A stretch of DNA of 64,000 bases. It comes from Trypanosoma brucei (taxonomy: Eukaryota). The stretch covers positions 1,056,001 to 1,120,000 of the forward strand of contig CP000069.1 in NCBI GenBank assembly GCA_000002445.1, in the 5' to 3' direction. Positions 31,819 through 61,425 of the stretch are shown one piece after another. Under the pieces are notes generated by a model. The model was not told where the DNA came from and ran no database searches. It saw only the letters and a program-made list of their open reading frames with translations. The translations under genes and the position numbers were made by a program. Positions within the stretch are counted from its first letter, which is position 1, and each line of letters opens with the position of its first letter.

Positions 31819-32370
31819 TTACGGGGCACAAGTGCTAAGTATCCATGCCACGCCTTCCTCCAGTCCTGCTCCCGTTTTGGCGCTACAGCCTTGGATGTGC
31901 CACTTGCGGTCTCGGAAGTCATGCAAATGAAGGCATTCTGCGATCGCCTGAGCATCTTTTGCGGTTGCAAGATCTTGTTTATTCGCAAACACCAAAACCG
32001 GAGCACCTTCAATGCCCTTTAGAACATCCACAAATGCAGCGTGAGATTCTTCGAGTCGGCGGTGGTCAGAAGAATCCACCACGTACATAATGCAGTCCGT
32101 GTTGCTGTAGTAATCCTGCCAATAGTCTCGCAGCGCCCGCTGGCCACCGAGATCACATAACTTAGCCCGTTTATTCCCACGTGTGAGTGTTTTGATATTA
32201 AACCCTTGCGTTGGTCCCTCAGGTGCGGCGTGGGAAACTTTTCCCTCCACAGGCACCTCGTCTTCTCCCAATGCATTCAGTACGGTAGTCTTTCCAGCGT
32301 TGTCAAGTCCCACTATCAGTACACGCGGCTCATTATCACGTTTCGCACGGCTACGGATCCCCTTAAGCAT
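31819..32370 (-). CDS. ADP-ribosylation-factor-like GTPase (ARL2/ARL3 subfamily)
   Basis: G1 LIVGLDNAGKTTVLNAL, PTQGFNIKTL, G3 DLGGQRALRDYWQDYY, G4 FANKQDL, and HIQGCSAKTGAGLEEGVAWIL closely parallel ARL2/ARL3. The ORF as given starts at 32517, but its first 49 codons (CLCACVCVCVCV) are translation of the upstream (CA)n repeat. Start assigned to Met at 32368-32370 (MLKGIRSRAK). Confidence 0.85.
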   Translation of the reverse strand: MLKGIRSRAKRDNEPRVLIVGLDNAGKTTVLNALGEDEVPVEGKVSHAAPEGPTQGFNIKTLTRGNKRAKLCDLGGQRALRDYWQDYYSNTDCIMYVVDSSDHRRLEESHAAFVDVLKGIEGAPVLVFANKQDLATAKDAQAIAECLHLHDFRDRKWHIQGCSAKTGAGLEEGVAWILSTCAP

Positions 32371-32448
32371 TATCAAATAGATTACCCTTATTCCTCTTTC
32401 TTTTTTCTTCTTTTTTATTGTTACCTTGGTGCTCCTCACAGACACAAG

Positions 32449-32476
32449 CACACACACACACACACACACACACGCA
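32449..32476. repeat. (CA)n microsatellite immediately 5' of ARL gene
   Basis: Direct read: cacacacacacacacacacacacgcacaa. Confidence 0.9.
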
Positions 32477-33106
32477 CAAAGACAGAGAGGCACAAACAAA
32501 CAGTAAAACAGATACACAATTAAGCGGGACTACCTTTGAGAATACGATGCCCCCTGTAATGTTCTTTCTCCTTGTTCTCATCATCACATCTGTGAGTCTT
32601 CTTCACGCTGTGCAGAAGAAAGTGTTCGATCTTCACACAGTCAAAAATGCTTCACAAATATTAGTAACTGTAACGTTCGAATAGGAGATCAAACAATAAA
32701 TACAAAAAAATTAAAAAATAAAAGAATGAAACACCAACACACGAAATACGGTAGAGAAGAAAAAAAACATAAAATCAAATTTAAAAAAGACGATAAAACA
32801 CAAAAGTATTTTCCGGAAACCAGAGTAAACAAGTCGACAATTTTTTGCGACCAGTTAAGAGAAAAAGGTCATTATAATGTGATGTGCAGCTTCACTTTCC
32901 AAAAAAAAAAAGATCAGAATGCTGCAAGCATTTCTCCTTCGGATAGAAGCGCTTGTGTTCTGTAATGACACGCAAATGTCGGATGTACTGAATAATAAAG
33001 GAGCCAGTGATGCAAAAATATCCTCACTCCATTTAATATCCTCTTTGTCCTGGCGGGCAAAATCAGGAGGAAATGGAAGTACAATTGTTATAAAGCATTG
33101 AGTTAC

Positions 33107-33937
33107 TCAAGAATTGCTGCTACACGACACACACAGTTTGTTCTTGAGACACGTTGGCAATAACTCAATGCTGGAAAGTGTTTGATCCCTTGCACCGATG
33201 GTATCAGTCAGCCACTGCTCCAACTCAGTGGAACGTCCCACAAGATCTGCTACCTCACGGTCGAGAACGGCTATTTGGCGGGCGTTTTGTGCCCCCAGTT
33301 CCTCCAAATCGCGTTGCTCCAATTCAAGTTGCTCTCTTAGTTGCGCAACTGCGGCAGCGTATTCCTCCTCCTCCTCGCATCTTTCTGTTGGTGGCCCGGG
33401 GACCACAACGGCGGGGTTCAGCGCCCCTGCACCCCGGATCATGCTGGCTTCGAGGGCTTTCTTAACATCCTTCTCGAGTCTCTCTTTCTCGCTGTGAAGT
33501 TTTACGATATCCTCCTTAAGAGCATTAATGCGTATCTGAAGGGAAGTTGCGGCATTATCGCTCTCCCACAATTTTTGTAAGTTATCTAACTCCTGCAAGT
33601 GGCACACCCACTCGGCAACTAGGGTTTCCGATTTACTCACCTGTTTCTGTACATGCTCAGTAAGCAAAGTCTCTTCCACCTCACTTTGACGAATAGTGTC
33701 CGCACCAGACATTAGTTGCAACTGAGCTTGACGCTGCTCTTCCAATAGATGATCGAGTTCCTTTTTCAGTTCAACCTCACGTGCCTCACTCAACACCCGC
33801 TGCTGTTCCAGCTGTTGGTGCTCCTCTGTGACAAACGACAGTCGTGTTTCGGCTTCCTTCCGTTTCATCATCACCACACGCCGGCGAGTTTCGACAGCAT
33901 TGAGATGCTCCATCAGTGAAGCAACAGACGACTCCAT
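33107..33937 (-). CDS. Coiled-coil protein (hypothetical)
   Basis: Start taken at internal Met (MESSVASLMEHLNAVE). Continuous heptad-rich, Glu/Leu/Gln/Arg-rich sequence (EEHQQLEQQRVLSEAREVELKKELDHLLEEQRQAQLQL...). No enzymatic motif. Confidence 0.5.
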   Translation of the reverse strand: MESSVASLMEHLNAVETRRRVVMMKRKEAETRLSFVTEEHQQLEQQRVLSEAREVELKKELDHLLEEQRQAQLQLMSGADTIRQSEVEETLLTEHVQKQVSKSETLVAEWVCHLQELDNLQKLWESDNAATSLQIRINALKEDIVKLHSEKERLEKDVKKALEASMIRGAGALNPAVVVPGPPTERCEEEEEYAAAVAQLREQLELEQRDLEELGAQNARQIAVLDREVADLVGRSTELEQWLTDTIGARDQTLSSIELLPTCLKNKLCVSCSSNS

Positions 33938-34476
33938 AATTACAGTACAGCGAAATATATGTATATGTGTGTTGTTGGTTTCTTTCTGGTATGATATTCT
34001 CCTTCTTCTATAAACTGTTCTTTTTTCGTTCCGTATGTCAACCACGCCCCCCCCTCACAACGTGAAAAAGAAACAAAATAGGGTAGAGGAAACAAAAAAA
34101 AATGAATTATACGACAACGAAGACACTGTTTAGTGTCACACGTTCACTCATTATTACAAAGAGGATGCGAGGAGAAGGAAGAAAGCCACCAGTAAGTCAC
34201 TTCCCACACACACTTATGGAAGCGAAAAATTTTAAAAAACATGTGAGTGGCCACAAGCACCACTATCAAACAAGGAATTAAGGGGATGCGCCCCGTGTAT
34301 GTCTTTTGTACATAAACAGCACCAAACAATAATATTGAGTGCCCACAAAGACACAAACCATTTGCACCACGTGATACCAACAGAAACCAAGCACGAATAA
34401 GAATTTAGACCTACCCGCGGACACAAAAAACTCGGTGGCACATCACAAGAACAAAGAAATGAGGTATTTGTCAGCT

Positions 34477-37400
34477 CTACAACCCCTCCTCGAATACGCC
34501 GCGCTCTTGCTGGATCCACCGAGAAAGAAACACACCATCACACTGCCTTCTGGATGTGTCACCCCGCTGGGGACGAGAAGCGCTTCCCTCCACAGACAAA
34601 TTCGTGCCGTCACTGTTGTTATCATCAGCATCACCGCCCTCCCCACCTGAAGCCGCAGACCCGCACCTTTCAACGCAACCAACGAACATGTGGTAAAGTG
34701 CCCATAGCGGCATGTCACATTGCTCTATAACCCGCGGTAGAAGTTCCTTGCTTATTTTCTTCGCCTCCTCCACGGTGTTATCAGGTTGTGTTACGGGAAC
34801 CGTAACATCGAAGTAACACCCCATCAGCACTCCCCTCACGGTAATAAACACAAGTTGCCGCTCTAGCATGCACTGGGGTGCAAACACATCATCTACCACA
34901 AAAGAGAACTCCACGCCTTTCGCCAAGAGTGCCGTGATCAACGGTATCTCACGCAACTCCTCTTCAAGACATTTGGAAAAGAGATCTTTCGATAGAAGAA
35001 CGTTGGCGTATTTTTTTGACGGGAAAATAGAATCTTCCTCAATGCAAACATCATAAAAGACCCCTGTTGAGATACACACCACGCCCCTCTGCGATATCTC
35101 CACTCTCGTTGGATACGGGCGTGGTGCGAACAAATAACTGTAGCCATCCAACCGCACACTCAAGTGCCCGTTAGCTAAGGAAGCCACATTTACAAGGACT
35201 TGATGTCTTTCATCTTTTCCCTGCAAGCAAACAGCACCAATGCGCACTGTATTGAAATTACCCGTAGCACCAAAACCTTGAGTTGATAAAGTGACTAAGA
35301 CGTCCCCTTCGATTCCATCCAACGTGAAGGTACCCCGTCCTGTCAGCCGACGCTCAACATACTCCAACTGGAGCTCAAGAGAGAAGTACATAGGAATACC
35401 TTCCATCCAGCTCACATCAACACCTTTTTGCAATGACCCAACAAGTTTGTCGCTCAGTGTAACAAGACTTGCAAGCGGCATTTCAGACACTTCCATGGAT
35501 AGCGACTCAAAATTCCGGTTTAGTGCAACACGCTGAAGGCGACAAACAAAACTACCGCAGGCTGGCACCACCAATGTACCACTCAAGTTAACAGTCGGTT
35601 GTAGGAAAGACTGTGGCTGGTGTCCTAGCACGGCGTTAAAGTTAATGCTTAAATCACTGATAAAGGCATCAGGAAAGACATCCCCGATATCATATCGCGC
35701 ACTGGGTGACATTCCCGAGATCAAAATCTGTTCATCAGGGTAACCAATGCTGCCGGCCAACGTCAATTCAATAATGGGTTCCGTCCCCTCACCACTATCA
35801 AATTGCGTGTCATACGATACAAAGTTTATTCTCTTATGCTCCGTTACTGGCAATGCCATTTCCGATGGATCAACATTCGTAGCTTTCATACAAAGCTCAA
35901 TCTCAAACACCATATATCCAATCACCAAACCTCGTAAGCCAAAGTTGATATCATTCCCTGGTAACGTGAACCGAACGGTTGCATTAGGGCTATCCATCGT
36001 TGGCGCAGAAAGAATTATTTCCGTTTTCGTATTTTCCAAAAACTGCAGGGTGTACAGCAGTAGCAGTTTGTCGAAAATGGGACATGGGCAAGTTGCGAGG
36101 GAGGTGCGGCGGATAAAATTCACGCCAGGAAACAGCTGCATTTGGTGGTTGAGGGGTAATGGAGAGCACCCAGGAAACGTCAGTCGGTACCTCGGCGTGA
36201 ACACTAACGTATTGAGTGTAAACGCAATGAGTACCGGTTGACCGGAGAACCCGACATGATAGAGTAGAGGTAGTCTAGGGAAGTGTTCAATGGCCAGCCA
36301 GTTGATTTCCTTGATTTCCACTAATACCATCACCGACGCAACGTGCTCATTTAATGCATTGATTTTTTTTGTAACCAGCAAGTCCGTGTTTCTCTGTACG
36401 TGCAGAGACATGCTCCACAAAATGATTACGAAAGCACGAGCATTATGGAATCCGTAAAAGCTCTCTGCTAGCGTACCACCCTCCACAATCTTTGGATAAA
36501 ACCACGAAACGCTTTCCTTTTCGATGGAAAAATCACGAGACACCAACATTGGATTAGCAATTAACATGTTCAGCTTATCCACGCCACAGGAGTACCTTTC
36601 TGCTACCGCATGCAGTAAATACATGAAATCGTTTCCGGAGCGCCTTTCCGTGGATATGTACTTGTTGTCCGGAAGGTTCTTTGCCTTGGACGCATTCCTA
36701 AACACTTTACTCTGAAACGCAATATATTCTGATTTAAACCGCATGAAGTATTGGGCGATACGCCCATGGTGTTCAATGTCCTCAGGCTCACGGAGGCCAC
36801 TAACAACGCTCCTTGCTTGATCGTAGCCTGCACGGCACTGTTGACAAAATTCGTCTTCATGGCTATAGGCAGCATTTTTCCACGTCTCGTACATGCTGTC
36901 ACTGAGTGGACACCGTAAAAGGGATGATAATTTTGTCCTTGCGCCTTTCTCGAGTGACCAAAACACTTCAAAAAGCTCAAGAAATGACGCTTTGGGGATC
37001 CCCTTGAATCTCACTCGCCAGTATGATGTTGGAGTGTCTACAAAGAAGGACAATGAGTTTCCTTTTGGCGAGAAGGGTCTCTCCGCCACGGGGACGTAAT
37101 CTACTCCATTGTTACTTGTCTCAACAACTATAACCAACACCTCTTCTTCCATCTCTATAGCTTTAACGATCTCCTCCTGTTGAGCAGTTGAAGCCTTACT
37201 GATTTTCTTCCCGGTTTTCTTGGGAGCTCGTGGAGAAGAAGCGGAAGTCACCTCCAATGCTGCTAATTTTTCTAATTCCGCCTCTGCGTCGGGATTGGTT
37301 TCAACACGGCCGTTGACAAACACCTGCTTGAAATGTGGAGATGTATCGCTGTCAAAAAACCATGAAACAGAGGCTTCCGTTTCCATCCCACGCGAACGCA

Positions 37401-40400
37401 ATACAACAGTTTTTGCATTGTTATCAGACAAAAATATCGGCAACCGCACTTCATCGAATTTTTCTACTGCCATTTTCACATCGGGCGCCTTGGAGAAGTC
37501 GTAGCGAACGAATGCTTTACCGATAAAAGAATACCATTCAGCTTGGACATCGCACTCCTTTTTCCAACTTATAAAAGGCCCTGATTTAGAACTGAAACAC
37601 GTTTCCTCCAGATTATCTTCTGCAAGAACGGGTCGAAGCCGCCAGTGCGACGACATTCCTCGTGGTTTCCACCCTTGGCGCACCTTCCGAGAATCTGCAC
37701 TGTCATCGTTCCTCAGCGTAGCAACCGCTTGCCACGAGGAACCGTCAACAGAACGCTTTTCAACTACAAATGAAGAAAGTGGCGGCAACTCCGCCTCAAC
37801 AGCAACTACCTCGGTACAATTTCCCCTCAGGTTCAGGTCCTTTCCACTTGAGCCGGCTGCAATATCTCCCTTTGAGTCCACATGGTGGTAAAGGGTTGGT
37901 TTTGGGGTGTCGAATCGTATGCTACATATTCTTAGCGGCGAAGTTCCCACACGCTGTGTGACCCGAAGTCGCCAATACTGACAACAATCGCTTACATCCC
38001 ATGCTGCCTGCGCTAAGTTACCCCGAAGATTAAACGTTACCCCAACACCTCGCCACTCTACCGCATCGGAGCTACACTCAACCACGAACGCAGTGTAGGG
38101 ACTTTTGTTTTCATGGCATATCATGCAGACACCAACAACTTGCGTGGCGTCTTGCTTGCTGTCAAGAACTATTGACGACCCAACTTCTGCCGGCACAACC
38201 ACGTTTGCCACAGTATCACCGGAGGACCCCACTTCACACAGTACGAAGGGATCCAATAAACAGCTTAGATACAAAGAGTCCTCCAAATAAACGGACGGAC
38301 CCGTATACTCGAAGAAAGTTAAGTTTTCGTATATCGTGCTTTGTTCCCGTGCCTCCAGTTCTACGCTCCAGAATCGACGGGGTCCCCTGGGATGCCATGC
38401 AGCTCTGAAATAGTGGTCATGACTGTGCCACGTGCCGCATACCTCCCACTGTTCACCATTTGAACTGCAGGATATGATCCACATCACAGGTCGCGGTTTT
38501 CCAACACAAATACATGAAAACTCCATGACGTCAGACGGTTCCCTTTCCCCATAGTCTACTATGAGGTGCTGTCTGACAACCTTAGTAGCCCCGCTCTCGT
38601 CGACGGGGTTTTCGAACGCAACTGTGACCTTATCATCAACGAATAGCGAAGACATGGGTCCATTCAATGTACCGCTGCAAGCAACTCTTACCGGCAAAAC
38701 TCTGGAAGAAACCGAAGAAACTGTAAGAAGCAACATATGGAAATACAATACGGGATATTCGTGCCGACTGTCCACCTCCTCACATTCCAAACTGAAACGC
38801 CAGAACCTCCGTGAATGGTGTCCAACCCTCTCACTCCCCCAAATTGTCCGACACCGACTAGTTATTTGATGATGTCTTCCCACCGTTTGCCATAGAACAC
38901 CATCATCGCTGCACTCCACCACCCAGTTATCGTCGCATGGTTCTGAGCTCTGCATAGTCACCCCAACCAACAGCTTTTGGTAATTTTTAAAGTCAAGATT
39001 GATGACACAGTCGTGCCGCCTTATTCCCCATCTCAAATACCACGTAACGGGGAAAAATACTTCTGATTGAGAGACAGGCTTAGCCTCCGTTAGGTTAGTT
39101 ATCCCTTGTGTCTCCACGTCAAGCGCTGCCACAAGGTCCTCACAAAATGTATAAAAACGGGTTGGATATTTCGGGAACGAAGCGGCGCAGAGAATCTTTT
39201 TACCCTCAAAGGCAGGATGACGGAAATAGGTTGAGTTGCTCAACCTCATTGGTCCCTCCACAAGTTCCGATGTTACGATGTTCCAGCGAAGAACATGAGG
39301 GGACTTGATAACAAAGACCTCCTCCGGTTGGCTCCATATCTGGACAATATTCTCCACTTCCTCCATCTTCCATGGCAAATCTTTAAACATCGTCGCAGCG
39401 CTTTGAACACCACCACCCCCAGATGCGAATGCCCCCTTCTCAATGTCCCATAAAATAACATGACTTCCGCTAATGAACGCGACGATGTTGGGGGTCCTCA
39501 CGTTGGGATAAAATGCCGCGTTAACCCCTCTCAGGAATGGTGCAGGCAGTGTATCAAATGCAGGATGGGCTGCTATCGGTACCGCACGATGGCCAACCAC
39601 AACACCATTGGAACAATCTAATTCAACAAAGTGAGGGCCGCAGAACAACAGGCAGAAATCCCCATTTGGAAGAAGAGGAAGTATGCAATGCCGCTCGAAC
39701 CAACCTGCACTTGTCGACGTTGTGAAAACGGCACCAGGTGTCAAACAGTTTAATATATCCCTTGCTGGCGAAAGGAGACAGGGTGCATCGATTGTCACCA
39801 ACGTAGACTCCAATGGCGGTAGTGCAACGGTGGGATCGACAGGTATAGTTCCAACAACGTGCATTACCTCGTACAGAAGAAGACGCACAACGCCCGTGCC
39901 AACAGGCAGTTTGCTGACGAAGCGCACACGCCAAACGCACCCTACATGCGATACGCCCCAACAAACAGGTGTGATTGATGATGTAATAAAGAAATGTGCG
40001 TGTCTTACATACGCGATCCCGTCATCACTACTCTCGAGAAGGACTTCAACGGGCGCGACCTGAAGAACTCGGGGTTCTATGCACGACAGATTCAGTACAA
40101 TCACGAGCGCGCCGAAGGCGCAGGGATTCATAGGATCGTACCGAACCTCGATAGTCTGGGAAGGTTCTCCCAACAAACTCTCCTCAGTTTGTACAAACAC
40201 CGCACTTTCACACAGGAGCGGTGCGACCGTGGTAAAGTTATGGGGTAACACAACTGACAGAAGGTTTTCTGCGCACTCCGCACTCTGAGTAAGAGTACTT
40301 GTAACTGTACACTCCCTGTGAACGCTTCGATGAGCATCACATAAAATAACATCGTGAACACTGCACTCTGTTTCCAGCACCGTTCTACATATACTGCCAA

Positions 40401-43400
40401 GTGCTGTCATCGTATTTTGTCGAAACGCCATCGGCAGTCTCGACAAAACGGAAGAAGGAATGGTCTCAAACCGAACCTCGCACTTCGCGTCAGGGGAGTA
40501 AATGAAGTTTTTTACGGTTGCAACACGTCCACAGCGACCAATAAGCATCACCACCATCTCCTTCTCATGTGTAATGGAGCTCCCCTTTCCGTCACCGTTA
40601 TTGTTGTTTGCACTGATCTTTGCCGTTGTCCCCACCAAACTCTCTTCCCTTGTAGACCTAATACTCCCCATGCTCGCCCAATTATTGTTATTATTATCCT
40701 CTTGCTCTTGGCTCTCTTCCGTTTCACCACTTTTCTCCCACATCAGCATCGTCGCCATTGGGCCGTGAGGAAACACTTTCGACAGTGACGGTCCGAATAT
40801 GGTTTCACCTGCGTTACCCTTCCCATGATCCCCAACTCGCATCGGTCCTCCAACAAGGCACCTTTCCGTGATGTTGAACACAACGTATTCAAGCTGACAG
40901 AAGAAAAACACGAGCGGCGTGTTTGCCACCGGAACAGCGGCATTAATTCCTGAAAGAAACTTTTCTGGTAGCGATCGAAACTGTTTGTGACACCTCAATT
41001 TGAATAAACCACCACTACACCTCTGGCGGTAGCTATCCCACTCCAACCACTCCTCACCACAAAAAAAATATGCAGTTCGTGGGTTGACTGGGGAATTGAA
41101 GGCACAATCAAATCCACCCATAAAAGGAAAACTGTTCAGCCCCAACGTCTTGGACATGGGTTGTAAGGGAATATTCATGGAACGATTCTCCACGTTGAAA
41201 CAACACACGTGGTCTTTGATAAAAAACAGAGCATATTCGGTCAAATTTCCATCCTTTGTGCAAAGACAAATGGAATGCCATGTTTCACCGATGAGTGATG
41301 GCGGAACAACCTCAGGTTCCTGTGCTAACGCCCGTGCAGTAATCCCTTTTTCCATTTGTGCTGACAAGGGAAGCACCAACCGACCTCCGTTGGGTTTAGA
41401 ACGTCCCCCAGACTTCCTTTGCGATTCCGCCTCTTTCCTCATAAAGGACCACATACCCAACAAATCCTCATGAAATGGATCTTGTGTTATGATAGGGGCA
41501 TCTTTCTTGCGGTTCGCCGGCCTGGACACACGCTTAGTCAAACGTTTTTTTTCCACACGATCTACGGGAAGAGACGAAGACAAGGTGAGCATAGTTGTAG
41601 ACTCTGAGAGTAACCCCATAACTTGATTCCACTCAATATCACCGCTGCGTTCCCGGACATGTTCACGAGTCGCCGTCCCACTGCCCATCTGTAGACGTGC
41701 TGGATAGGGTGGAAGATTCACCAAATCATGTAGAAGCCGAGCAACCCATTCCACTGCGTTAGGACCAAGTACCTCGCTCAGGTAAAAGAGAACAAGGGAG
41801 CGAGTACTTTCAGTGAGACAAAGCTGTCGCAGCGTTCGCAGAAGTTTCCATTGACTTTGCGAAATATGGCACTCACCCGTGCGGTATGCAAAGAAAAGTA
41901 ACGCAGGTGGAAACCGAATAGCTTCCGAGAAAACTCTCGAGCCTTCAAGCCCCCCACCGTCGGTTGACAGGCAAATATCGCTCATGTAGTTGAAAGCTTC
42001 ATGGAGCACTTGACAGTTCTCCACTATGCCAATAACTTTCTTCGGAAGGTACCGCGAGGCGTGCAGTGAAATCTTCTCACCGTTGCTCAAAGCAAAGACA
42101 TTGGAATCAACAAAAATACACGCGTCACTGGATACATAGAGGTTAAAAACACTGCGGGGCACGTAAAAGAATCCACGATTCCCCACATTCTCCCCGAAGT
42201 TGCTTTGGCAGATAACATAGATGGTGTTGTGTATGTTTGTCTGCCCAACGACCTTAAGGGTCGTGTGAAATGAACGACCCATGGGCGATTCATTTGGTAT
42301 CACACCGTTCGGCAGTGCGAGCCACTCTACGCAAAAGCGCATGACGATAAGTATTGATCGCCGCATTTTACGAAACGCCCACAAAACAGCCCGTGTGTTG
42401 TCAAACAAGTTCGAGTGAGGGCCATCGACAATAAACAACCCTTGACGACGTCGCGAAAATGCAGCTCGAACCAAAGTCTCCATGTCAGCTACCTTACACC
42501 ACTTTTCCCATAGATAATAAAAGTCTCGTGTGGGTCTTTCTTTTCGACGGTTAAACGGTGCCGATTCCACAGGAAGGCAACCGACCATCAGCGCCACTTC
42601 ACACGCATGCCGCAACTCCATTCCCAAAGAAGTGGGAGGTATCTTAGCTAAGAAACGACCAACCGCATAGATCATATATGGATCAATAGCCACACCCTCG
42701 ATATCCGTCATCGCGCTCGCAACAGTAAGTGCACAACAGGTGTCTTCCCCAGCCGCATCGTCAATGTAGGCAGAAGCGAAGTTGATAATAGAAAAATCGT
42801 CATTTGATAACTGGGTCAACGGAATATCCAGCGAGGATAAAAGACTTATGCCGGTCATACTGTTCGTAACCTGCACACCGCCATAGCTATACAACCCAAA
42901 TCGTACAAGATGCTGCACGCACAGTTGAGAGCAAGGTTTGAACCTTTGGTGTTTTATCATTACTCTTGACAAGTGAAGAAGCGCCGACGGTCGCAGATAA
43001 CAGTCCACCGTTACGTCATCATGGAGTTGAGATAAGAATCTATACGCACCATTGGACAAACATAGAGTGTGATTTCCACATACGCTACACGCATCCGCAT
43101 CGTCATGGTTCTTCCTATGCATCTCCTCAGCGTCACTGCTGTCAGCTGACGAGCTGTCGAAACACCGTGTGGCTCCCGATGAGGCAGACGATAACGGGTT
43201 TACCACTTTCGTACTGCCCTCAGCGTTCAATTTTTCTGAATTTACGCGCTTTCTCTCCAGTCTAGCGACATTGTCTACCAGACAGCGCTGCAACGTTGTA
43301 TTCCGAGGACAAGTGCCCTTAACACCGTGGAGGTGCTCGCTCAACACACTCTCAATCATGATCACGATATCATCGCTCAGTTTATTCTTGCATTCATAAG

Positions 43401-44145
43401 AGCATATGAATAACACACCATTGTTCGTATCACAGCATACGAGCAAGGTCCGAAACAAAACTCCCAGCGCAACCTCGCAGTAACTCTCTCCACGATTCAT
43501 GAGTGCCTTCGAAAGCGCCAGGAGAATCTGTCCTTCAACCCTTTGGTCAGGGGAATAGATGACAGCCCTGTTGCAAACCAAACAACGGGAAGCCACTAAC
43601 TTCATGTTCGCATTGGAAAAGCACTGCCGTTGTATAGACAGGTACTTGGGTGTGTCCTTGTCCAATAGGATTTCCGTCAAGCAATTGTTTTTTAATGCGA
43701 GGGCGAAGAGCTTACGTCCACTGCTCACACTCAATGGAACGTCACGTAGGTCAATCTTTTGCAATGTTTCGTGAAAACCAAGGTACTGCAACATTTGAGC
43801 GATATCTTCCGCAGTCAACTTACATCCTCTCATGGACAAACTCGCAACGGAAAGGCGCTGTAGTGTTGTGAGAATAGGGATGATACCGCGTTCACCCAAG
43901 TAGCCGTTATCAAAGTTGAAAACTGTCGACCCGGCTCGTAATTGCTTTACAAACGCGTTGTTTACATTTATTCCAATGCGCGCACACTCCGAACGGTAAA
44001 ACCTCTCAGCTTCACTGACTGAATGGATCCGATTCGAAGTGGTTGAGCTTGAAGGCGAAGGTGGAGCTAAGGGATCCACTGTCTCCTCACTGGGGGACGC
44101 GGCCAAACACTTAGTGGCCCCTTTCAAGTTTTCTTCCCCTTGCAT
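34477..44145 (-). CDS. Giant (3222-aa) multidomain protein: N-terminal RNI-like LRR, long central region with six copies of a conserved repeat module, Gly/Asp-rich C-terminus
   Basis: Single uninterrupted 9.67-kb ORF co-oriented with its neighbours. Leu-rich RNI-like segment at aa ~90-170 (LTTLQRLSVASLSMRGCKLTAEDIAQMLQYLGFHETLQKIDLRDVPL). Repeat module at aa ~1369-2385. No catalytic motif recognised. Confidence 0.8.
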   Translation of the reverse strand: MQGEENLKGATKCLAASPSEETVDPLAPPSPSSSTTSNRIHSVSEAERFYRSECARIGINVNNAFVKQLRAGSTVFNFDNGYLGERGIIPILTTLQRLSVASLSMRGCKLTAEDIAQMLQYLGFHETLQKIDLRDVPLSVSSGRKLFALALKNNCLTEILLDKDTPKYLSIQRQCFSNANMKLVASRCLVCNRAVIYSPDQRVEGQILLALSKALMNRGESYCEVALGVLFRTLLVCCDTNNGVLFICSYECKNKLSDDIVIMIESVLSEHLHGVKGTCPRNTTLQRCLVDNVARLERKRVNSEKLNAEGSTKVVNPLSSASSGATRCFDSSSADSSDAEEMHRKNHDDADACSVCGNHTLCLSNGAYRFLSQLHDDVTVDCYLRPSALLHLSRVMIKHQRFKPCSQLCVQHLVRFGLYSYGGVQVTNSMTGISLLSSLDIPLTQLSNDDFSIINFASAYIDDAAGEDTCCALTVASAMTDIEGVAIDPYMIYAVGRFLAKIPPTSLGMELRHACEVALMVGCLPVESAPFNRRKERPTRDFYYLWEKWCKVADMETLVRAAFSRRRQGLFIVDGPHSNLFDNTRAVLWAFRKMRRSILIVMRFCVEWLALPNGVIPNESPMGRSFHTTLKVVGQTNIHNTIYVICQSNFGENVGNRGFFYVPRSVFNLYVSSDACIFVDSNVFALSNGEKISLHASRYLPKKVIGIVENCQVLHEAFNYMSDICLSTDGGGLEGSRVFSEAIRFPPALLFFAYRTGECHISQSQWKLLRTLRQLCLTESTRSLVLFYLSEVLGPNAVEWVARLLHDLVNLPPYPARLQMGSGTATREHVRERSGDIEWNQVMGLLSESTTMLTLSSSLPVDRVEKKRLTKRVSRPANRKKDAPIITQDPFHEDLLGMWSFMRKEAESQRKSGGRSKPNGGRLVLPLSAQMEKGITARALAQEPEVVPPSLIGETWHSICLCTKDGNLTEYALFFIKDHVCCFNVENRSMNIPLQPMSKTLGLNSFPFMGGFDCAFNSPVNPRTAYFFCGEEWLEWDSYRQRCSGGLFKLRCHKQFRSLPEKFLSGINAAVPVANTPLVFFFCQLEYVVFNITERCLVGGPMRVGDHGKGNAGETIFGPSLSKVFPHGPMATMLMWEKSGETEESQEQEDNNNNNWASMGSIRSTREESLVGTTAKISANNNNGDGKGSSITHEKEMVVMLIGRCGRVATVKNFIYSPDAKCEVRFETIPSSVLSRLPMAFRQNTMTALGSICRTVLETECSVHDVILCDAHRSVHRECTVTSTLTQSAECAENLLSVVLPHNFTTVAPLLCESAVFVQTEESLLGEPSQTIEVRYDPMNPCAFGALVIVLNLSCIEPRVLQVAPVEVLLESSDDGIAYVRHAHFFITSSITPVCWGVSHVGCVWRVRFVSKLPVGTGVVRLLLYEVMHVVGTIPVDPTVALPPLESTLVTIDAPCLLSPARDILNCLTPGAVFTTSTSAGWFERHCILPLLPNGDFCLLFCGPHFVELDCSNGVVVGHRAVPIAAHPAFDTLPAPFLRGVNAAFYPNVRTPNIVAFISGSHVILWDIEKGAFASGGGGVQSAATMFKDLPWKMEEVENIVQIWSQPEEVFVIKSPHVLRWNIVTSELVEGPMRLSNSTYFRHPAFEGKKILCAASFPKYPTRFYTFCEDLVAALDVETQGITNLTEAKPVSQSEVFFPVTWYLRWGIRRHDCVINLDFKNYQKLLVGVTMQSSEPCDDNWVVECSDDGVLWQTVGRHHQITSRCRTIWGSERVGHHSRRFWRFSLECEEVDSRHEYPVLYFHMLLLTVSSVSSRVLPVRVACSGTLNGPMSSLFVDDKVTVAFENPVDESGATKVVRQHLIVDYGEREPSDVMEFSCICVGKPRPVMWIISCSSNGEQWEVCGTWHSHDHYFRAAWHPRGPRRFWSVELEAREQSTIYENLTFFEYTGPSVYLEDSLYLSCLLDPFVLCEVGSSGDTVANVVVPAEVGSSIVLDSKQDATQVVGVCMICHENKSPYTAFVVECSSDAVEWRGVGVTFNLRGNLAQAAWDVSDCCQYWRLRVTQRVGTSPLRICSIRFDTPKPTLYHHVDSKGDIAAGSSGKDLNLRGNCTEVVAVEAELPPLSSFVVEKRSVDGSSWQAVATLRNDDSADSRKVRQGWKPRGMSSHWRLRPVLAEDNLEETCFSSKSGPFISWKKECDVQAEWYSFIGKAFVRYDFSKAPDVKMAVEKFDEVRLPIFLSDNNAKTVVLRSRGMETEASVSWFFDSDTSPHFKQVFVNGRVETNPDAEAELEKLAALEVTSASSPRAPKKTGKKISKASTAQQEEIVKAIEMEEEVLVIVVETSNNGVDYVPVAERPFSPKGNSLSFFVDTPTSYWRVRFKGIPKASFLELFEVFWSLEKGARTKLSSLLRCPLSDSMYETWKNAAYSHEDEFCQQCRAGYDQARSVVSGLREPEDIEHHGRIAQYFMRFKSEYIAFQSKVFRNASKAKNLPDNKYISTERRSGNDFMYLLHAVAERYSCGVDKLNMLIANPMLVSRDFSIEKESVSWFYPKIVEGGTLAESFYGFHNARAFVIILWSMSLHVQRNTDLLVTKKINALNEHVASVMVLVEIKEINWLAIEHFPRLPLLYHVGFSGQPVLIAFTLNTLVFTPRYRLTFPGCSPLPLNHQMQLFPGVNFIRRTSLATCPCPIFDKLLLLYTLQFLENTKTEIILSAPTMDSPNATVRFTLPGNDINFGLRGLVIGYMVFEIELCMKATNVDPSEMALPVTEHKRINFVSYDTQFDSGEGTEPIIELTLAGSIGYPDEQILISGMSPSARYDIGDVFPDAFISDLSINFNAVLGHQPQSFLQPTVNLSGTLVVPACGSFVCRLQRVALNRNFESLSMEVSEMPLASLVTLSDKLVGSLQKGVDVSWMEGIPMYFSLELQLEYVERRLTGRGTFTLDGIEGDVLVTLSTQGFGATGNFNTVRIGAVCLQGKDERHQVLVNVASLANGHLSVRLDGYSYLFAPRPYPTRVEISQRGVVCISTGVFYDVCIEEDSIFPSKKYANVLLSKDLFSKCLEEELREIPLITALLAKGVEFSFVVDDVFAPQCMLERQLVFITVRGVLMGCYFDVTVPVTQPDNTVEEAKKISKELLPRVIEQCDMPLWALYHMFVGCVERCGSAASGGEGGDADDNNSDGTNLSVEGSASRPQRGDTSRRQCDGVFLSRWIQQERGVFEEGL
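36993..40041 (-). repeat. Six intragenic protein-level repeats of a module marked by [LV]VE-x-S-x-[DN]G-x-x-W ... ~32 aa ... [FYHV]W[RS][VLF][RSE][LFV]
   Basis: Six copies by manual residue counting, at aa 1371, 1743, 1891, 2021, 2124 and 2341. They are: ESSDDGIAYV...VWRVRFVS, VVECSDDGVLWQTVG...FWRFSLEC, IISCSSNGEQWEVCG...FWSVELEA, VVECSSDAVEWRGVG...YWRLRVTQ, VVEKRSVDGSSWQAVA...HWRLRPV and VVETSNNGVDYVPVA...YWRVRFKG. Spacing is 110-370 aa. Confidence 0.6.
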
Positions 44146-44711: not shown

Positions 44712-45596
44712 TTATTCTTGCTTTTTATTTGCGTCTTCCCTTTCCCCAGCCTGAGAACCTATCGAGTGGTGTTTTAAGGTTCCGACTAGGCGCAGTTTAT
44801 TATTCTCCTCTACGAAAGGGGAAGTGTTGCGGATTATATAAGCCGACACGCCAGCCTCCAACCCAGCAGAGACGATAGCCTCCAATAGTTCCTCGCCACA
44901 TTCAGGAATCATAACGGAAAATGAAGAAAGGTACGCCCGCAAAAGTATTTGAAGGGGAAGCATTAGTAAAACACGTGTGGTGCAGCATTTTTTGGTCCCG
45001 AGATGGCGGCGACGGTACCATAGTTTTGCAAGTGTGAGCGCCACTGAGGGCATTTGCCACACGAAAAAGTCCAAATCCCACTCCGATGTAGACGAGAAGG
45101 CATAAACGGCGTACGATGCAAAGCGTCCCGGAGAAAAGAGGTCCAACGTTCGCAAAATCTCCGACCAGCCAGTGAGCGTGTAATCAAAAAGGAAACGTGG
45201 GGTTGTCACCGCAGCAAGGTACCGCACTGGGCAAATAATCACTGAAACACCAATTTCTAGTCCCTGGGAAGCCACATACGAAATCATTGACTGCTTCGAC
45301 TGTGAAACAGAACCTCTACGACGTAGCACATACTGCGAAAACAGGCCTCGTCCCGTGTAGTAAGTGACAGAATAAATAATGAGACGTAAAAAAGATCCAA
45401 AGACCAGCCGGAGTGTCTCTACACGCGAGTCGATAGTTGGTAGATGCTCCATAACATCTATGCACAAGACTAAAAATTGACACTGCCAAGTGGAATCCTT
45501 TTGTGTCTTCAAAACATCAAATAACAAGAAGAAAAGCAAAAAGCAATGAAATTGGAAATTGGAAGGGAAGTGCGGCAACAAACTTGTGCAACACAC
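44712..45596 (-). CDS. Hypothetical small multi-pass membrane protein
   Basis: 294-aa ORF, with a probable real start at the internal Met (MEHLPTIDSRVE, ~45452). Four to five hydrophobic segments carry small-xxx-small motifs (GLEIGVSVII, SAGLEAGVSAYII). No family assignment possible by eye. Confidence 0.4.
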   Translation of the reverse strand: MCCTSLLPHFPSNFQFHCFLLFFLLFDVLKTQKDSTWQCQFLVLCIDVMEHLPTIDSRVETLRLVFGSFLRLIIYSVTYYTGRGLFSQYVLRRRGSVSQSKQSMISYVASQGLEIGVSVIICPVRYLAAVTTPRFLFDYTLTGWSEILRTLDLFSPGRFASYAVYAFSSTSEWDLDFFVWQMPSVALTLAKLWYRRRHLGTKKCCTTRVLLMLPLQILLRAYLSSFSVMIPECGEELLEAIVSAGLEAGVSAYIIRNTSPFVEENNKLRLVGTLKHHSIGSQAGEREDANKKQE

Positions 45597-56892: not shown

Positions 56893-58866
56893 TTACTCCT
56901 TCTTTTCACCAGATGCCTGCTGCTGTTGTTGCTCACCCTGACCTTCTGTGCTGCTGCTACCAGAGCTACCGCTGTTCGCTGCTGCCGCCTGTTGGTACTC
57001 CGTGCGACCACATTCCATCACTGCCTTTTGCAGTTTGTCAGTAGAAGCCGACAGTTCATCCTTCGTCACGTTTGGATTCTCCATCACCTTGCGAAGTTCA
57101 GCCAAAAGGGTACGCACATTCTCCTTCTCAGCGTCCGTCACGTACTTCCATTCCGTCAGTTGTCGCTCAGCAGTGTTAGCCTGAGTCTCAGCATTGTTAC
57201 GCACTTCCACAAGCTCCCGCTTCACACGGTCAGCTTCAGCGTGCATCTCAGAGTCGCGGATCATGTTCTCGATCTGCTCCTTCGTCAACCCACCATGAGC
57301 AGTAATGGTGATGTTCTGTGTTTTCCCAGTTGCCTTGTCCTTCGCAGTTACGTGACAAATACCATTAGCATCAATGTCAAATGTCACCTCAATTTGTGGT
57401 ACACCGCGTGGTGCAGGAGGAATTCCAACGAGGTCAAACTGACCCATCATTTGGTTGTCAGATGCCATTTCTCGTTCCCCTTGGAACACTTTGATTCCGA
57501 CCTGTGTTTGGTTGTCCGCAGCAGTTGAGAAGGTTTGACTCTTCTTCGTCGGGATTGTTGTGTTCTTGGGAATCATACGTGTGAAGACACCACCAAGTGT
57601 TTCGATTCCAAGTGATAGTGGTGTAACGTCAAGCAATACAAGACCCTTCACATCACCACGGAGAACACCACCAAGTGTTGCAGCACCCAGTGCAACGGCC
57701 TCGTCAGGGTTCACACCACGGAACGGTTCGCGACCGAAGAACTGCTTCACAGCCTCCACAACCTTTGGCATACGCGTCATACCACCAACAAGCACAACCT
57801 CAGAGATTTCCTTCAGGTCAACAGCAGCGTCCTTGATGCATTGCTTGCACGGTCCAAGTGAACGTTGTACGAGCTTATCAGCAAGGGACTCAAACTTGCT
57901 GCGGCTCACCATCATCTGCACGTGCTGCGCTCCGTCCTGGTTAGCTGTGATAAACGGAAGGTTTACCTCCGTCTCCATCGTCGTCGAAAGTTCACACTTC
58001 GCCTTTTCTGCAGCCTCACGAATACGCTGCAGTGCCATCCGCTCCTTGCTCAAGTCAATTCCAGATGTCTTGCGGAATTCCTCCAGAATGTGATCAGAGA
58101 GGCAGAGATCAAAGTCTTCTCCACCAAGGTGAGTGTCGCCATTCGTTGCCTTTACCTCAAAAACACCTCCGGCAATTTCAAGTACGGAGATATCAAATGT
58201 TCCACCACCAAGATCATACACGGCAATTAAGCTGTCCTTCGTTTTGTCCAAGCCATATGCCAGTGCAGCAGCAGTCGGTTCATTCACAACACGGATCACA
58301 TTCAGTCCAGCAATCGTACCGGCATCCTTCGTTGCCTGACGTTGCGCGTCATTGAAGTACGCGGGGCACGTCACCACAGCGTTAGATACTTTGCGTCCCA
58401 GGAAGTTTTCTGCCGTTTCCTTCATCTTCTCAAGTACGAATGCACCAACTTGTGAAGGTGAGTATTGCTTCCCATTCCCATCTTGCACCCACGCATCACC
58501 ATTATTGCTCCGAATAATCTTGTAGGGCACATTCTTGATGTCGTGTTGGATGTGCTCATCATCGAAGCGACGACCAATCAGCCGTTTCACCGCGAAGAAT
58601 GTCGACTGTGGGTTCGTAATCGCCTGACGTTTCGCTGCAAGGCCAACAAGTTTTTCCTGTCCTTTGAACGCAACCACAGACGGTGTCGTCCTGAAACCCT
58701 CTGTATTCTCAAGTACGCGTGGCCGGTCACCTTCCATTACTGCAACACAACTGTATGTCGTACCCAAATCAATACCAATCACGTCACCAGTTACCTTCGA
58801 TGACTGCCACCGCGCAAACGGGGCAGACGCCAGGCACATGGGTGCGCATACACGACGGGCCAACAT
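56893..58866 (-). CDS. mtHSP70: Mitochondrial HSP70 (mtHSP70 / mortalin-type DnaK), copy 1
   Basis: 657-aa ORF with DnaK signatures [24 protein letters not shown] and [13 protein letters not shown]. Arg-rich N-terminal mitochondrial presequence [20 protein letters not shown]. Gln/Gly/Ser-rich C-terminal tail without cytosolic EEVD. Confidence 0.95.
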
Positions 58867-59451: not shown

Positions 59452-61425
59452 TTACTCCTTCTTTTCACCAGATGCCTGCTGCTGTTGTTGCTCACCCTGA
59501 CCTTCTGTGCTGCTGCTACCAGAGCTACCGCTGTTCGCTGCTGCCGCCTGTTGGTACTCCGTGCGACCACATTCCATCACTGCCTTTTGCAGTTTGTCAG
59601 TAGAAGCCGACAGTTCATCCTTCGTCACATTTGGATTCTCCATCACCTTGCGAAGTTCAGCCAAAAGGGTACGCACATTCTCCTTCTCAGCGTCCGTCAC
59701 GTACTTCCATTCCGTCAGTTGTCGCTCAGCAGTGTTAGCCTGAGTCTCAGCATTGTTACGCACTTCCACAAGCTCCCGCTTCACACGGTCAGCTTCAGCG
59801 TGCATCTCAGAGTCGCGGATCATGTTCTCGATCTGCTCCTTCGTCAACCCACCATGAGCAGTAATGGTGATGTTCTGTGTTTTCCCAGTTGCCTTGTCCT
59901 TCGCAGTTACGTGGCAAATACCATTAGCATCAATGTCAAATGTCACCTCAATTTGTGGTACACCGCGTGGTGCAGGAGGAATTCCAACGAGGTCAAACTG
60001 ACCCATCATTTGGTTGTCAGATGCCATTTCTCGTTCCCCTTGGAACACTTTGATTCCGACCTGTGTTTGGTTGTCCGCAGCAGTTGAGAAGGTTTGACTC
60101 TTCTTCGTCGGGATTGTTGTGTTCTTGGGAATCATACGTGTGAAGACACCACCAAGTGTTTCGATTCCAAGTGATAGTGGTGTAACGTCAAGCAATACAA
60201 GACCCTTCACATCACCACGGAGAACACCACCAAGTGTTGCAGCACCCAGTGCAACGGCCTCGTCAGGGTTCACACCACGGAACGGTTCGCGACCGAAGAA
60301 CTGCTTCACAGCCTCCACAACCTTTGGCATACGCGTCATACCACCAACAAGCACAACCTCAGAGATTTCCTTCAGGTCAACAGCAGCGTCCTTGATGCAT
60401 TGCTTGCACGGTCCAAGTGAACGTTGTACGAGCTTATCAGCAAGGGACTCAAACTTGCTGCGGCTCACCATCATCTGCACGTGCTGCGCTCCGTCCTGGT
60501 TAGCTGTGATAAACGGAAGGTTTACCTCCGTCTCCATCGTCGTCGAAAGTTCACACTTCGCCTTTTCTGCAGCCTCACGAATACGCTGCAGTGCCATCCG
60601 CTCCTTGCTCAAGTCAATTCCAGATGTCTTGCGGAATTCCTCCAGAATGTGATCAGAGAGGCAGAGATCAAAGTCTTCTCCACCAAGGTGAGTGTCGCCA
60701 TTCGTTGCCTTTACCTCAAAAACACCTCCGGCAATTTCAAGTACGGAGATATCAAATGTTCCACCACCAAGATCATACACGGCAATTAAGCTGTCCTTCG
60801 TTTTGTCCAAGCCATATGCCAGTGCAGCAGCAGTCGGTTCATTCACAACACGGATCACATTCAGTCCAGCAATCGTACCGGCATCCTTCGTTGCCTGACG
60901 TTGCGCGTCATTGAAGTACGCGGGGCACGTCACCACAGCGTTAGATACTTTGCGTCCCAGGAAGTTTTCTGCCGTTTCCTTCATCTTCTCAAGTACGAAT
61001 GCACCAACTTGTGAAGGTGAGTATTGCTTCCCATTCCCATCTTGCACCCACGCATCACCATTATTGCTCCGAATAATCTTGTAGGGCACATTCTTGATGT
61101 CGTGTTGGATGTGCTCATCATCGAAGCGACGACCAATCAGCCGTTTCACCGCGAAGAATGTCGACTGTGGGTTCGTAATCGCCTGACGTTTCGCTGCAAG
61201 GCCAACAAGTTTTTCCTGTCCTTTGAACGCAACCACAGACGGTGTCGTCCTGAAACCCTCTGTATTCTCAAGTACGCGTGGCCGGTCACCTTCCATTACT
61301 GCAACACAACTGTATGTCGTACCCAAATCAATACCAATCACGTCACCAGTTACCTTCGATGACTGCCACCGCGCAAACGGGGCAGACGCCAGGCACATGG
61401 GTGCGCATACACGGCGGGCCAACAT
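59452..61425 (-). CDS. mtHSP70: Mitochondrial HSP70, copy 2 (identical protein)
   Basis: Translation identical to copy 1 over all 657 aa. The nucleotide sequence differs at only 3 synonymous positions (for example 57070 g vs 59629 a, 57355 a vs 59914 g, 58853 a vs 61412 g). Confidence 0.95.

What the first reader, a model, noticed from the sequence alone, without database searches (positions are those of the whole stretch)
36993..40041. Six-copy intragenic repeat family with a conserved E-x-S-x-[DN]-G-x-x-W ... W-R-[VL]-R core
Manual counting places the modules at aa 1371, 1743, 1891, 2021, 2124 and 2341. Each has (i) a hydrophobic-hydrophobic-E-x-S-x-D/N-G-x-x-W or Y block and (ii) 30-36 residues later an aromatic-W-R/S-hydrophobic-R/E-hydrophobic block (VWRVRF, FWRFSL, FWSVEL, YWRLRV, HWRLRP, YWRVRF). 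Module spacing of 110-150 aa fits a beta-sandwich domain. The W...RY/W-R-L-R ending is reminiscent of galactose-binding-like/discoidin (F5/8 type C) domains. The inter-motif distance is shorter than in classical discoidins, so it could be a distinct or undescribed fold family. At nucleotide level the copies are divergent, so they are ancient duplications rather than recent repeats.
Basis: seen in the sequence. Interest (0 to 1): 0.55.

Follow-up and report, generated by a model that had tools for sequence, protein, structure and literature searches.

The report
Six divergent discoidin-like domains, giant trypanosome protein
A 3222-residue trypanosome protein, probably the little-studied flagellar protein PFC8, contains six very old, highly diverged copies of the common discoidin / carbohydrate-binding-module type beta-sandwich domain, so the repeat is real but its fold is ordinary.

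Summary
The 3222-aa ORF (window 34477-44145, minus strand) contains six copies of a module. Each has a [ES]-x-S-x-[DN]-[GA]-x-x-[WY] hairpin and, 33-38 residues later, an aromatic-W-[RS] strand. Leave-one-out HMMs recover each copy at 8.8-23.5 bits, against 4.3 bits or less in 300 shuffles. Profile-profile comparison links all 15 module pairs (E 2e-5 to 7e-19).

The subfamily falls below Pfam's threshold: the window's copy gives no hit, and orthologues reach at most 25.2 bits against a cut-off of 28.2. An exhaustive search found only about 22 orthologue clusters, from kinetoplastids, a prokinetoplastid and a diplonemid, with the six modules in the same order.

Gene order and literature identify the gene as probably Tb927.6.3670 (PFC8, paraflagellar-rod proteome). 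It has no signal peptide or transmembrane segment. The most likely role, which is inferred, is intracellular protein-docking or scaffold modules. Moderate-to-low interest.

The parts
34477..44145 (-). Whole ORF of 3222 aa (stop included). Probably Tb927.6.3670 / PFC8. No Pfam hit, no signal peptide and no TM-like segment.
   Evidence: Gene identity is inferred from gene order (Arl3C 3650, CLP1 3690) and from the LRR + hemopexin description of the listed Leishmania orthologue.
39811..40260 (-). Module M1 (aa ~1296-1445), an isolated galactose-binding-like beta-sandwich. LLESSDDGIAY starts at aa 1369; VWRVRF is at aa 1404.
38701..39048 (-). Module M2 (aa ~1700-1815). VVECSDDGVLW; FWRFSL at aa 1781.
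38278..38694 (-). Module M3 (aa ~1818-1956). IISCSSNGEQW; FWSVEL at aa 1925.
   Evidence: AF2 model residues 139-277, pLDDT blocks 73-90. Leave-one-out score 23.5 bits.
37900..38211 (-). Module M4 (aa ~1979-2082). VVECSSDAVEW; YWRLRV at aa 2057.
   Evidence: AF2 model residues 300-402. Leave-one-out score 23.2 bits. hhalign E down to 7e-19 against M2.
37528..37848 (-). Module M5 (aa ~2100-2206). A shortened copy with a one-residue insertion in motif (i) (VVEKRSVDGSSW) and HWRLRP at aa 2167. A disordered loop precedes the last conserved strand (V-x-W-x-x-F).
   Evidence: AF2 model residues 421-525. Leave-one-out score 8.8 bits against 2.9 or less in shuffles. hhalign E 2e-5 to 9e-11.
36910..37383 (-). 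Module M6 (aa ~2255-2412). VVETSNNGVDY; YWRVRF at aa 2375. It is split by a Lys/Ser/Ala-rich low-complexity insertion (aa ~2290-2335). No structure model was made.
   Evidence: Leave-one-out score 8.9 bits. hhalign to M1 1.6e-13 and to M4 1e-12. The insertion length varies among orthologues.
39232..39654 (-). Hemopexin-like region HX2 (aa ~1498-1638) lying between M1 and M2. This is context and not part of the repeat family.
   Evidence: hhalign to HX1: 99%, E 4.8e-18.
40825..41232 (-). Hemopexin-like region HX1 (aa ~972-1107), upstream of M1. Context.
   Evidence: The full-length orthologue profile hits the hemopexin-fold protein CP4 (3oyo) at E 1.1e-7, and plant hemopexin-fold lectins more weakly.
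43666..43953 (-). N-terminal RNI-type leucine-rich repeats (aa ~65-160). Context.
   Evidence: Profile hits to FAP101 (8.5e-15), ribonuclease inhibitor (3e-8) and DRC5/TCTE1 (2e-6 to 5e-6).

Best explanation
The six modules are six anciently duplicated, strongly diverged copies of the galactose-binding-domain-like jelly-roll beta-sandwich. The closest type is F5/8 type C (discoidin) / CBM32. They sit in a giant, probably cytoplasmic and flagellar protein of kinetoplastids and diplonemids, most likely Tb927.6.3670 = PFC8.

Motif (i) is the end of one strand, the S-x-D-G beta-turn, and the Trp that opens the next strand. Motif (ii), [RH]-[FY]-W-R-[LV], is the counterpart of the classical discoidin 'R-Y-[VI]-R-[IL]' strand. 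A third upstream block, h-x-h-D-h, corresponds to the 'vDLg' strand.

Shown here: the repeat is real, its fold, its family affinity, its age, and its restriction to this orthologue group.

Inferred: the protein has no signal peptide or membrane segment, starts with axoneme-type LRRs, and was found in a paraflagellar-rod proteome. The modules therefore most likely act as rigid protein-protein docking or spacer modules, like the intracellular relatives DOC/APC10, IFT25 and muskelin discoidin. They would anchor or space this scaffold within the flagellar cytoskeleton rather than act as secreted lectins.

Confidence in fold and family is about 0.9. Confidence in the docking/scaffold function is about 0.5.
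For: Repeat is real: leave-one-out HMMs; hhalign for all 15 pairs.

Fold: AF2 model of aa 1680-2205 has pLDDT 73.5, is all-beta, and contains four sandwiches with both motifs as strands. AF2 model of M1 has pLDDT 76.

Structural neighbours:
- Foldseek against PDB: neuropilin a1a2b1b2 1e-9, reelin, factor V/VIII C domains, allantoicase, CBM32.

Sequence level: the six-module profile hits the GH92 CBM32-like domain at E 0.007 and 4a42 at 0.5. With the 64-sequence profile, all 19 PDB hits at E<1 except one chain labelled only 'Carbohydrate-binding protein' (6n1a) are named CBM32 / alginate lyase, factor VIII C or lactadherin C domains. PF00754 and PF22633 give sub-threshold hits in 3 of 9 orthologues.

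Age and distribution: 22 clusters only. The four clusters that carry an organism name are T. vivax, Phytomonas, Papus and Lacrimia. The six modules are syntenic. Identity on the positional diagonal is 0.30-0.42 against 0.18-0.27 off it.

Cellular context: no TM or signal-like hydrophobic stretch; the LRR region resembles FAP101 and DRC5; PFC8 is in the PFR proteome.

Conservation pattern: conserved residues are the core D, S-x-D-G, three Trp and Arg. Loops are variable.
Against: - The window's own modules give no Pfam hit even at E<=10. The best orthologue score is 25.2 bits against the 28.2 cut-off, so formal PF00754 membership is not met.
- M6 was not modelled, and its N-terminal half is assigned only by a conserved block.
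- M5 is short, and its homology scores are the weakest.
- The function is entirely inferred. No binding partner, localisation or phenotype was seen here.
- PFC8 identity rests on gene numbering and an orthologue table. PFC8 was called from only 2 iTRAQ peptides.
- An antiserum study placed the Leishmania orthologue mainly at the parasite surface and in host cytosol. This would favour an exposed lectin or adhesin role.
- The AF2 alignments were shallow (9 and 14 sequences).
Confidence: 0.62

Rival explanations
1. The modules are working lectins (carbohydrate-binding modules), as CBM32 and discoidin domains typically are. They would recognise a glycan on the parasite surface, in the flagellar pocket or on host molecules.
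For: The closest structural and sequence relatives are sugar-binding CBM32 / F5-8C domains. The protein also carries hemopexin-fold regions whose nearest solved relatives include plant lectins. An antiserum to the Leishmania orthologue labelled the parasite surface.
Confidence: 0.15
2. The modules bind membrane phospholipid, like the factor V/VIII C2 and lactadherin C2 domains. They would tether the paraflagellar rod or cytoskeleton to the flagellar membrane.
Against: These hits score lower than CBM32 and DOC. No conserved hydrophobic or basic 'spike' loops were evident in the conservation scan.
Confidence: 0.08
3. The modules are inert structural spacers with no specific ligand. They only give length and rigidity to a giant filament-like protein.
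For: Conservation is concentrated in fold-determining core residues, with variable loops. The modules form a tandem array with short linkers.
Against: Each positional module has been kept distinct since before the kinetoplastid/diplonemid split. This argues that the copies have individual, non-interchangeable roles.
Confidence: 0.15

Closest known systems
CBM32 / F5-8 type C (discoidin) domains (Pfam PF00754, PF22633; e.g. C. perfringens GH89 CBM32-6, PDB 4a42; factor VIII C1/C2; lactadherin C2)
   Different: The modules score below Pfam gathering thresholds. A Trp replaces the V/I of R-Y-V-R. The setting is intracellular. There is no evidence for a sugar, Ca2+ or lipid site. The spacing is 5-9 residues shorter than in factor VIII C2; that figure comes from my recollection of the FVIII sequence and was not measured with a tool.
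Intracellular galactose-binding-like domains: DOC/APC10 (HECTD3, HERC2, CUL7, APC10), IFT25, muskelin discoidin, PITH
   Different: No sequence-level similarity was detected. Those proteins carry one copy, not six. The partners are unrelated and, for this protein, unknown.
Multi-domain arrays such as neuropilin a1a2b1b2 and reelin repeats
   Same: They also have tandem beta-sandwich domains of this superfamily. They are the best Foldseek hits to the four-domain model (E 1e-9 to 1e-7).
   Different: Those are extracellular and disulphide-rich. TM-scores are about 0.2, so the inter-domain geometry does not match.

Membership tests
Galactose-binding domain-like superfamily (structural level) | Jelly-roll beta-sandwich of about 8 strands and about 110-150 residues that superposes on known members. 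| tested here: met
Pfam PF00754 F5_F8_type_C | Score at or above the curated gathering threshold (28.2 bits). | tested here: not met
   Window protein and single modules: no hit. Orthologues: best score 25.2 bits, E 1.9e-5.
Pfam PF00754 F5_F8_type_C / CAZy CBM32 | Conserved sequence blocks (vDLg strand, S-x-D-G-x-x-W hairpin, R-Y-x-R strand) in the family's order and spacing. | tested here: met
   The HMM alignments to 4a42, 7nsn and 5zu6 cover these blocks with 3 or fewer residues of length difference. The Pfam partial matches cover HMM positions 34-99 of 127.
CBM32 / discoidin lectins | Demonstrable carbohydrate (or phospholipid) ligand site in the apical loops, often with a structural Ca2+. 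| not testable with these tools
Loops are poorly conserved among orthologues.
DOC/APC10 domain (PF03256) | Sequence match to the DOC profile. | tested here: not met
Paraflagellar rod component PFC8 (Tb927.6.3670) | Being the gene at that locus, with PFR-dependent presence in flagella. | tested here: inconclusive
   Gene order Arl3C(3650) - coiled-coil - giant - membrane protein (POMP31 = 3680) - CLP1(3690) fits. The listed Leishmania orthologue has LRR + hemopexin repeats, like this ORF. No direct sequence record was available for comparison.

The most novel reading that the evidence does not exclude
The hemopexin-like and discoidin-like modules are domain types best known from extracellular matrix and lectin proteins. 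They may form a Euglenozoa-specific intraflagellar ligand-binding array. In that case PFC8 would be a giant cytoplasmic 'lectin-like' tether that recognises a glycan, lipid or modified-protein mark and so links the paraflagellar rod to the membrane or axoneme. The six-module unit would then merit its own domain family.
Probability: 0.12. Interest if true: 0.55.

Novelty: new member of a known kind. Interest (0 to 1): 0.3.

Why it matters
It gives the first domain-level annotation of roughly a third of a 3222-aa 'hypothetical' protein conserved across kinetoplastids and diplonemids and probably part of the paraflagellar rod. The layout found is axoneme-type LRRs, then a first hemopexin-like region (HX1), module M1, a second hemopexin-like region (HX2), and modules M2-M6.

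This suggests concrete constructs for localisation, interaction and structure work. It also supplies a seed alignment for a domain subfamily that current Pfam models miss. It does not reveal a new fold or mechanism.

Tried and rejected
- Pfam on the whole protein and on each module, up to E 10: nothing relevant.
- phmmer of the region against PDB sequences: only noise.
- The search for homologous proteins: it timed out on the full protein. It returned no hits with the 1131-aa region, only the T. congolense fragment with the orthologue alignment, and nothing with the 64-sequence module profile. Its index evidently lacks these proteins, so the wider-family question rests on the exhaustive phmmer run.
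- The afdb50 fold library was unavailable, so no comparison with predicted eukaryotic structures was made.
- Nucleotide repeat search of the region: none found.
- A literature search for 'PFC8' alone returned mostly unrelated acronyms. Only two trypanosome papers mention it.
Full report
**Setting.** Every ORF of 300 aa or more in the window lies on the minus strand. The neighbours are ordinary eukaryotic genes: a P4-ATPase, a tubulin-tyrosine-ligase-like protein, a DEAD-box helicase, a SET-domain protein, a PLP-dependent decarboxylase, a RING/B-box protein, CLP1, a DnaJ protein and two identical HSP70 copies. This is a kinetoplastid polycistronic unit. The finding lies inside one ORF of 3222 aa (window 34477-44145, minus strand).

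**Observation.** Regular-expression and manual inspection find motif (i) at aa 1371, 1744, 1892, 2023, 2129 and 2342. The sequences are LLESSDDGIAY, VVECSDDGVLW, IISCSSNGEQW, VVECSSDAVEW, VVEKRSVDGSSW and VVETSNNGVDY. Motif (ii) lies 33-38 residues downstream (VWRVRF, FWRFSL, FWSVEL, YWRLRV, HWRLRP, YWRVRF).
- Only three copies fit the strict consensus; the others deviate by one substitution or a one-residue insertion.
- A third conserved block (h-x-h-D-h...h-x-h-x-h) lies 25-35 residues upstream of motif (i).

**Significance.** I built an HMM from five cores and searched the protein plus 300 shuffles of it. The omitted sixth copy was recovered every time at 8.8-23.5 bits, while the best shuffled score was 2.0-4.3 bits. 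No seventh copy appeared. With profiles made from 14 positional orthologues per module, hhalign links all 15 module pairs at 77-99% probability (E 2e-5 to 7e-19). The region has no nucleotide-level direct repeat.

**Relatives.**
- An exhaustive phmmer search of aa 1290-2420 against 1.84 billion representative proteins found only 22 proteins at E<=1e-3. Most are about 3000-aa giants or fragments of them.
- The four clusters that carry an organism name are Trypanosoma vivax (46% identity), Phytomonas, the prokinetoplastid Papus ankaliazontas and the diplonemid Lacrimia lanifica. All are 'hypothetical'. A T. congolense fragment was also found.
- The core HMM finds the six modules at corresponding positions in most full-length orthologues. 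Four or five are found in the most distant ones.
- Mean identity between modules at the same position across species is 0.30-0.42. Between different positions it is 0.18-0.27. The duplications therefore predate the divergence of these lineages, and each copy has since been kept distinct.

**Fold.**
- AlphaFold2 on aa 1680-2205 with nine orthologous sequences gave mean pLDDT 73.5. The model is all-beta, with four sandwich domains separated by low-confidence linkers. In each domain motif (i) is the end of a strand, a turn, and the start of the next strand, and motif (ii) is a later strand of the same domain.
- M1 modelled alone with 14 sequences gave pLDDT 76, with a core of 87-94.
- Foldseek against the PDB returned neuropilin a1a2b1b2 (1e-9), reelin, factor V/VIII C domains, allantoicase and CBM32 proteins.
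M6 was not modelled; it is tied to the others by hhalign (E about 1e-12 to 1e-13 against M1 and M4).

**Sequence-level family affinity.**
- The six-module profile hits the CBM32-like domain of a GH92 enzyme (E 0.007), 4a42 (0.5) and the laminin LN domain (0.83).
- With a 64-sequence profile, 18 of the 19 PDB hits at E<1 are named CBM32 / alginate lyase, factor VIII C or lactadherin C domains. The remaining one (6n1a) is labelled only 'Carbohydrate-binding protein'.
- Pfam gives nothing for the window's own sequence. Three of nine orthologues give sub-threshold PF00754 / PF22633 matches, with a best of 25.2 bits against a cut-off of 28.2.
- The alignment to 4a42 shows that [RH]-[FY]-W-R-[LV] corresponds to the discoidin R-[YF]-[VI]-R strand. 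The S-to-R spacing is 33-37 residues here and 36 in 4a42.
- The 'short' spacing is therefore normal for CBM32. It is short only relative to animal factor V/VIII C domains, which I recall as about 42; that figure is from memory and was not measured.
- The modules are a divergent subfamily of a known fold, not a new one.

**Context within the protein.**
- A full-length 14-sequence profile detects RNI-type LRRs at aa ~65-160. The best matches are the axonemal proteins FAP101 (8.5e-15) and DRC5/TCTE1.
- The same profile detects a hemopexin-fold region at aa ~955-1083 (3oyo, 1.1e-7).
- A second hemopexin-like region between M1 and M2 is homologous to the first (hhalign 99%, E 5e-18).
- The layout is LRR, Cys-rich region, HX1, M1, HX2, M2-M6, then about 800 unassigned residues.
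- There is no signal-like or TM-like hydrophobic stretch.

**Gene identity (inferred).**
- An Arf-like GTPase ORF lies at 31819-32517, followed by a coiled-coil ORF, the giant ORF, a 294-aa hydrophobic ORF and CLP1.
- This order matches the published identifiers TbArl3C = Tb927.6.3650, POMP31 = Tb927.6.3680 and CLP1 = Tb927.6.3690.
- That leaves Tb927.6.3670 for the giant ORF. This is PFC8, detected with two iTRAQ peptides as depleted from flagella when PFR2 is knocked down.
- The Leishmania orthologue listed for PFC8, LmjF30.2390, was independently described as having LRR and hemopexin repeats. That matches this architecture.
- Neither paper mentions discoidin-like domains.

**Function (inferred).** Among positional orthologues the strongly conserved residues are the core Asp, the S-x-D-G turn, three Trp and the Arg. 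Loops are variable. Taken with the cytoplasmic character, the axoneme-type LRR and the PFR proteomics, the most likely role is protein docking or spacing within a flagellar scaffold, as for DOC, IFT25 and muskelin domains. Lectin, phospholipid-binding and pure-spacer roles remain possible. The Leishmania antiserum data showing surface and host-cytosol signal are the main evidence for an exposed lectin role.

**Verdict.** It is wrong in suggesting a possibly new fold or a wider family. This is a new, sub-threshold member group of a very common domain superfamily in an uncharacterised lineage-specific giant protein. It is useful annotation of modest interest.

Noticed in passing
window 40825-41232 and 39232-39654 (minus strand; aa ~972-1107 and ~1498-1638 of the giant ORF): There are two hemopexin-like regions. 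The first hits the hemopexin-fold protein CP4 (3oyo, E 1e-7) with the orthologue profile. The second is homologous to the first (hhalign 99%, E 5e-18). This fold is unusual in an apparently cytoplasmic protein.
   Followed up: partly
window 43666-43953 (minus strand; aa ~65-160): The N-terminal RNI-type leucine-rich repeats have axonemal proteins as their best solved relatives: FAP101 of the Chlamydomonas central apparatus, and DRC5/TCTE1.
   Followed up: partly
giant ORF aa 188-252 and 353-409 (window ~42919-43584, minus strand): Cys pairs are invariant or nearly invariant across 14 orthologues (C188/C191, C248/C252, C353/C356, C405/C409). They look like zinc-knuckle motifs. No family match was found.
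   Followed up: no
giant ORF aa ~2290-2335 (window ~37141-37278, minus strand): A Lys/Ser/Ala-rich low-complexity insertion splits module M6. In orthologues the M6 segment as a whole ranges from about 155 to 384 residues.
   Followed up: partly
window 56893-58866 and 59452-61425 (minus strand): Two tandem 657-aa HSP70 ORFs give identical Pfam scores. They fit the tandem mitochondrial HSP70 array of T. brucei chromosome 6.
   Followed up: no
window 31819-32517 (minus strand): The Arf-like GTPase ORF (probably TbArl3C) has a mechanical N-terminal extension that reads through a (TG)n tract (CVCVCVCV). The real start is probably the internal Met before LKGIRSRAK.
   Followed up: no
window 33107-34045 and 44712-45596 (minus strand): The giant gene is flanked by a 312-aa coiled-coil ORF (weak DUF4407 match) and a 294-aa hydrophobic ORF. 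By gene numbering the latter would be POMP31 (Tb927.6.3680), a mitochondrial outer-membrane protein.
   Followed up: partly
giant ORF aa ~2420-3222 (window 34477-36885, minus strand): The C-terminal ~800 residues are conserved among orthologues, with several invariant Gly and Pro. They matched nothing in Pfam or in the PDB sequence-profile searches. The domain content is unknown.
   Followed up: no
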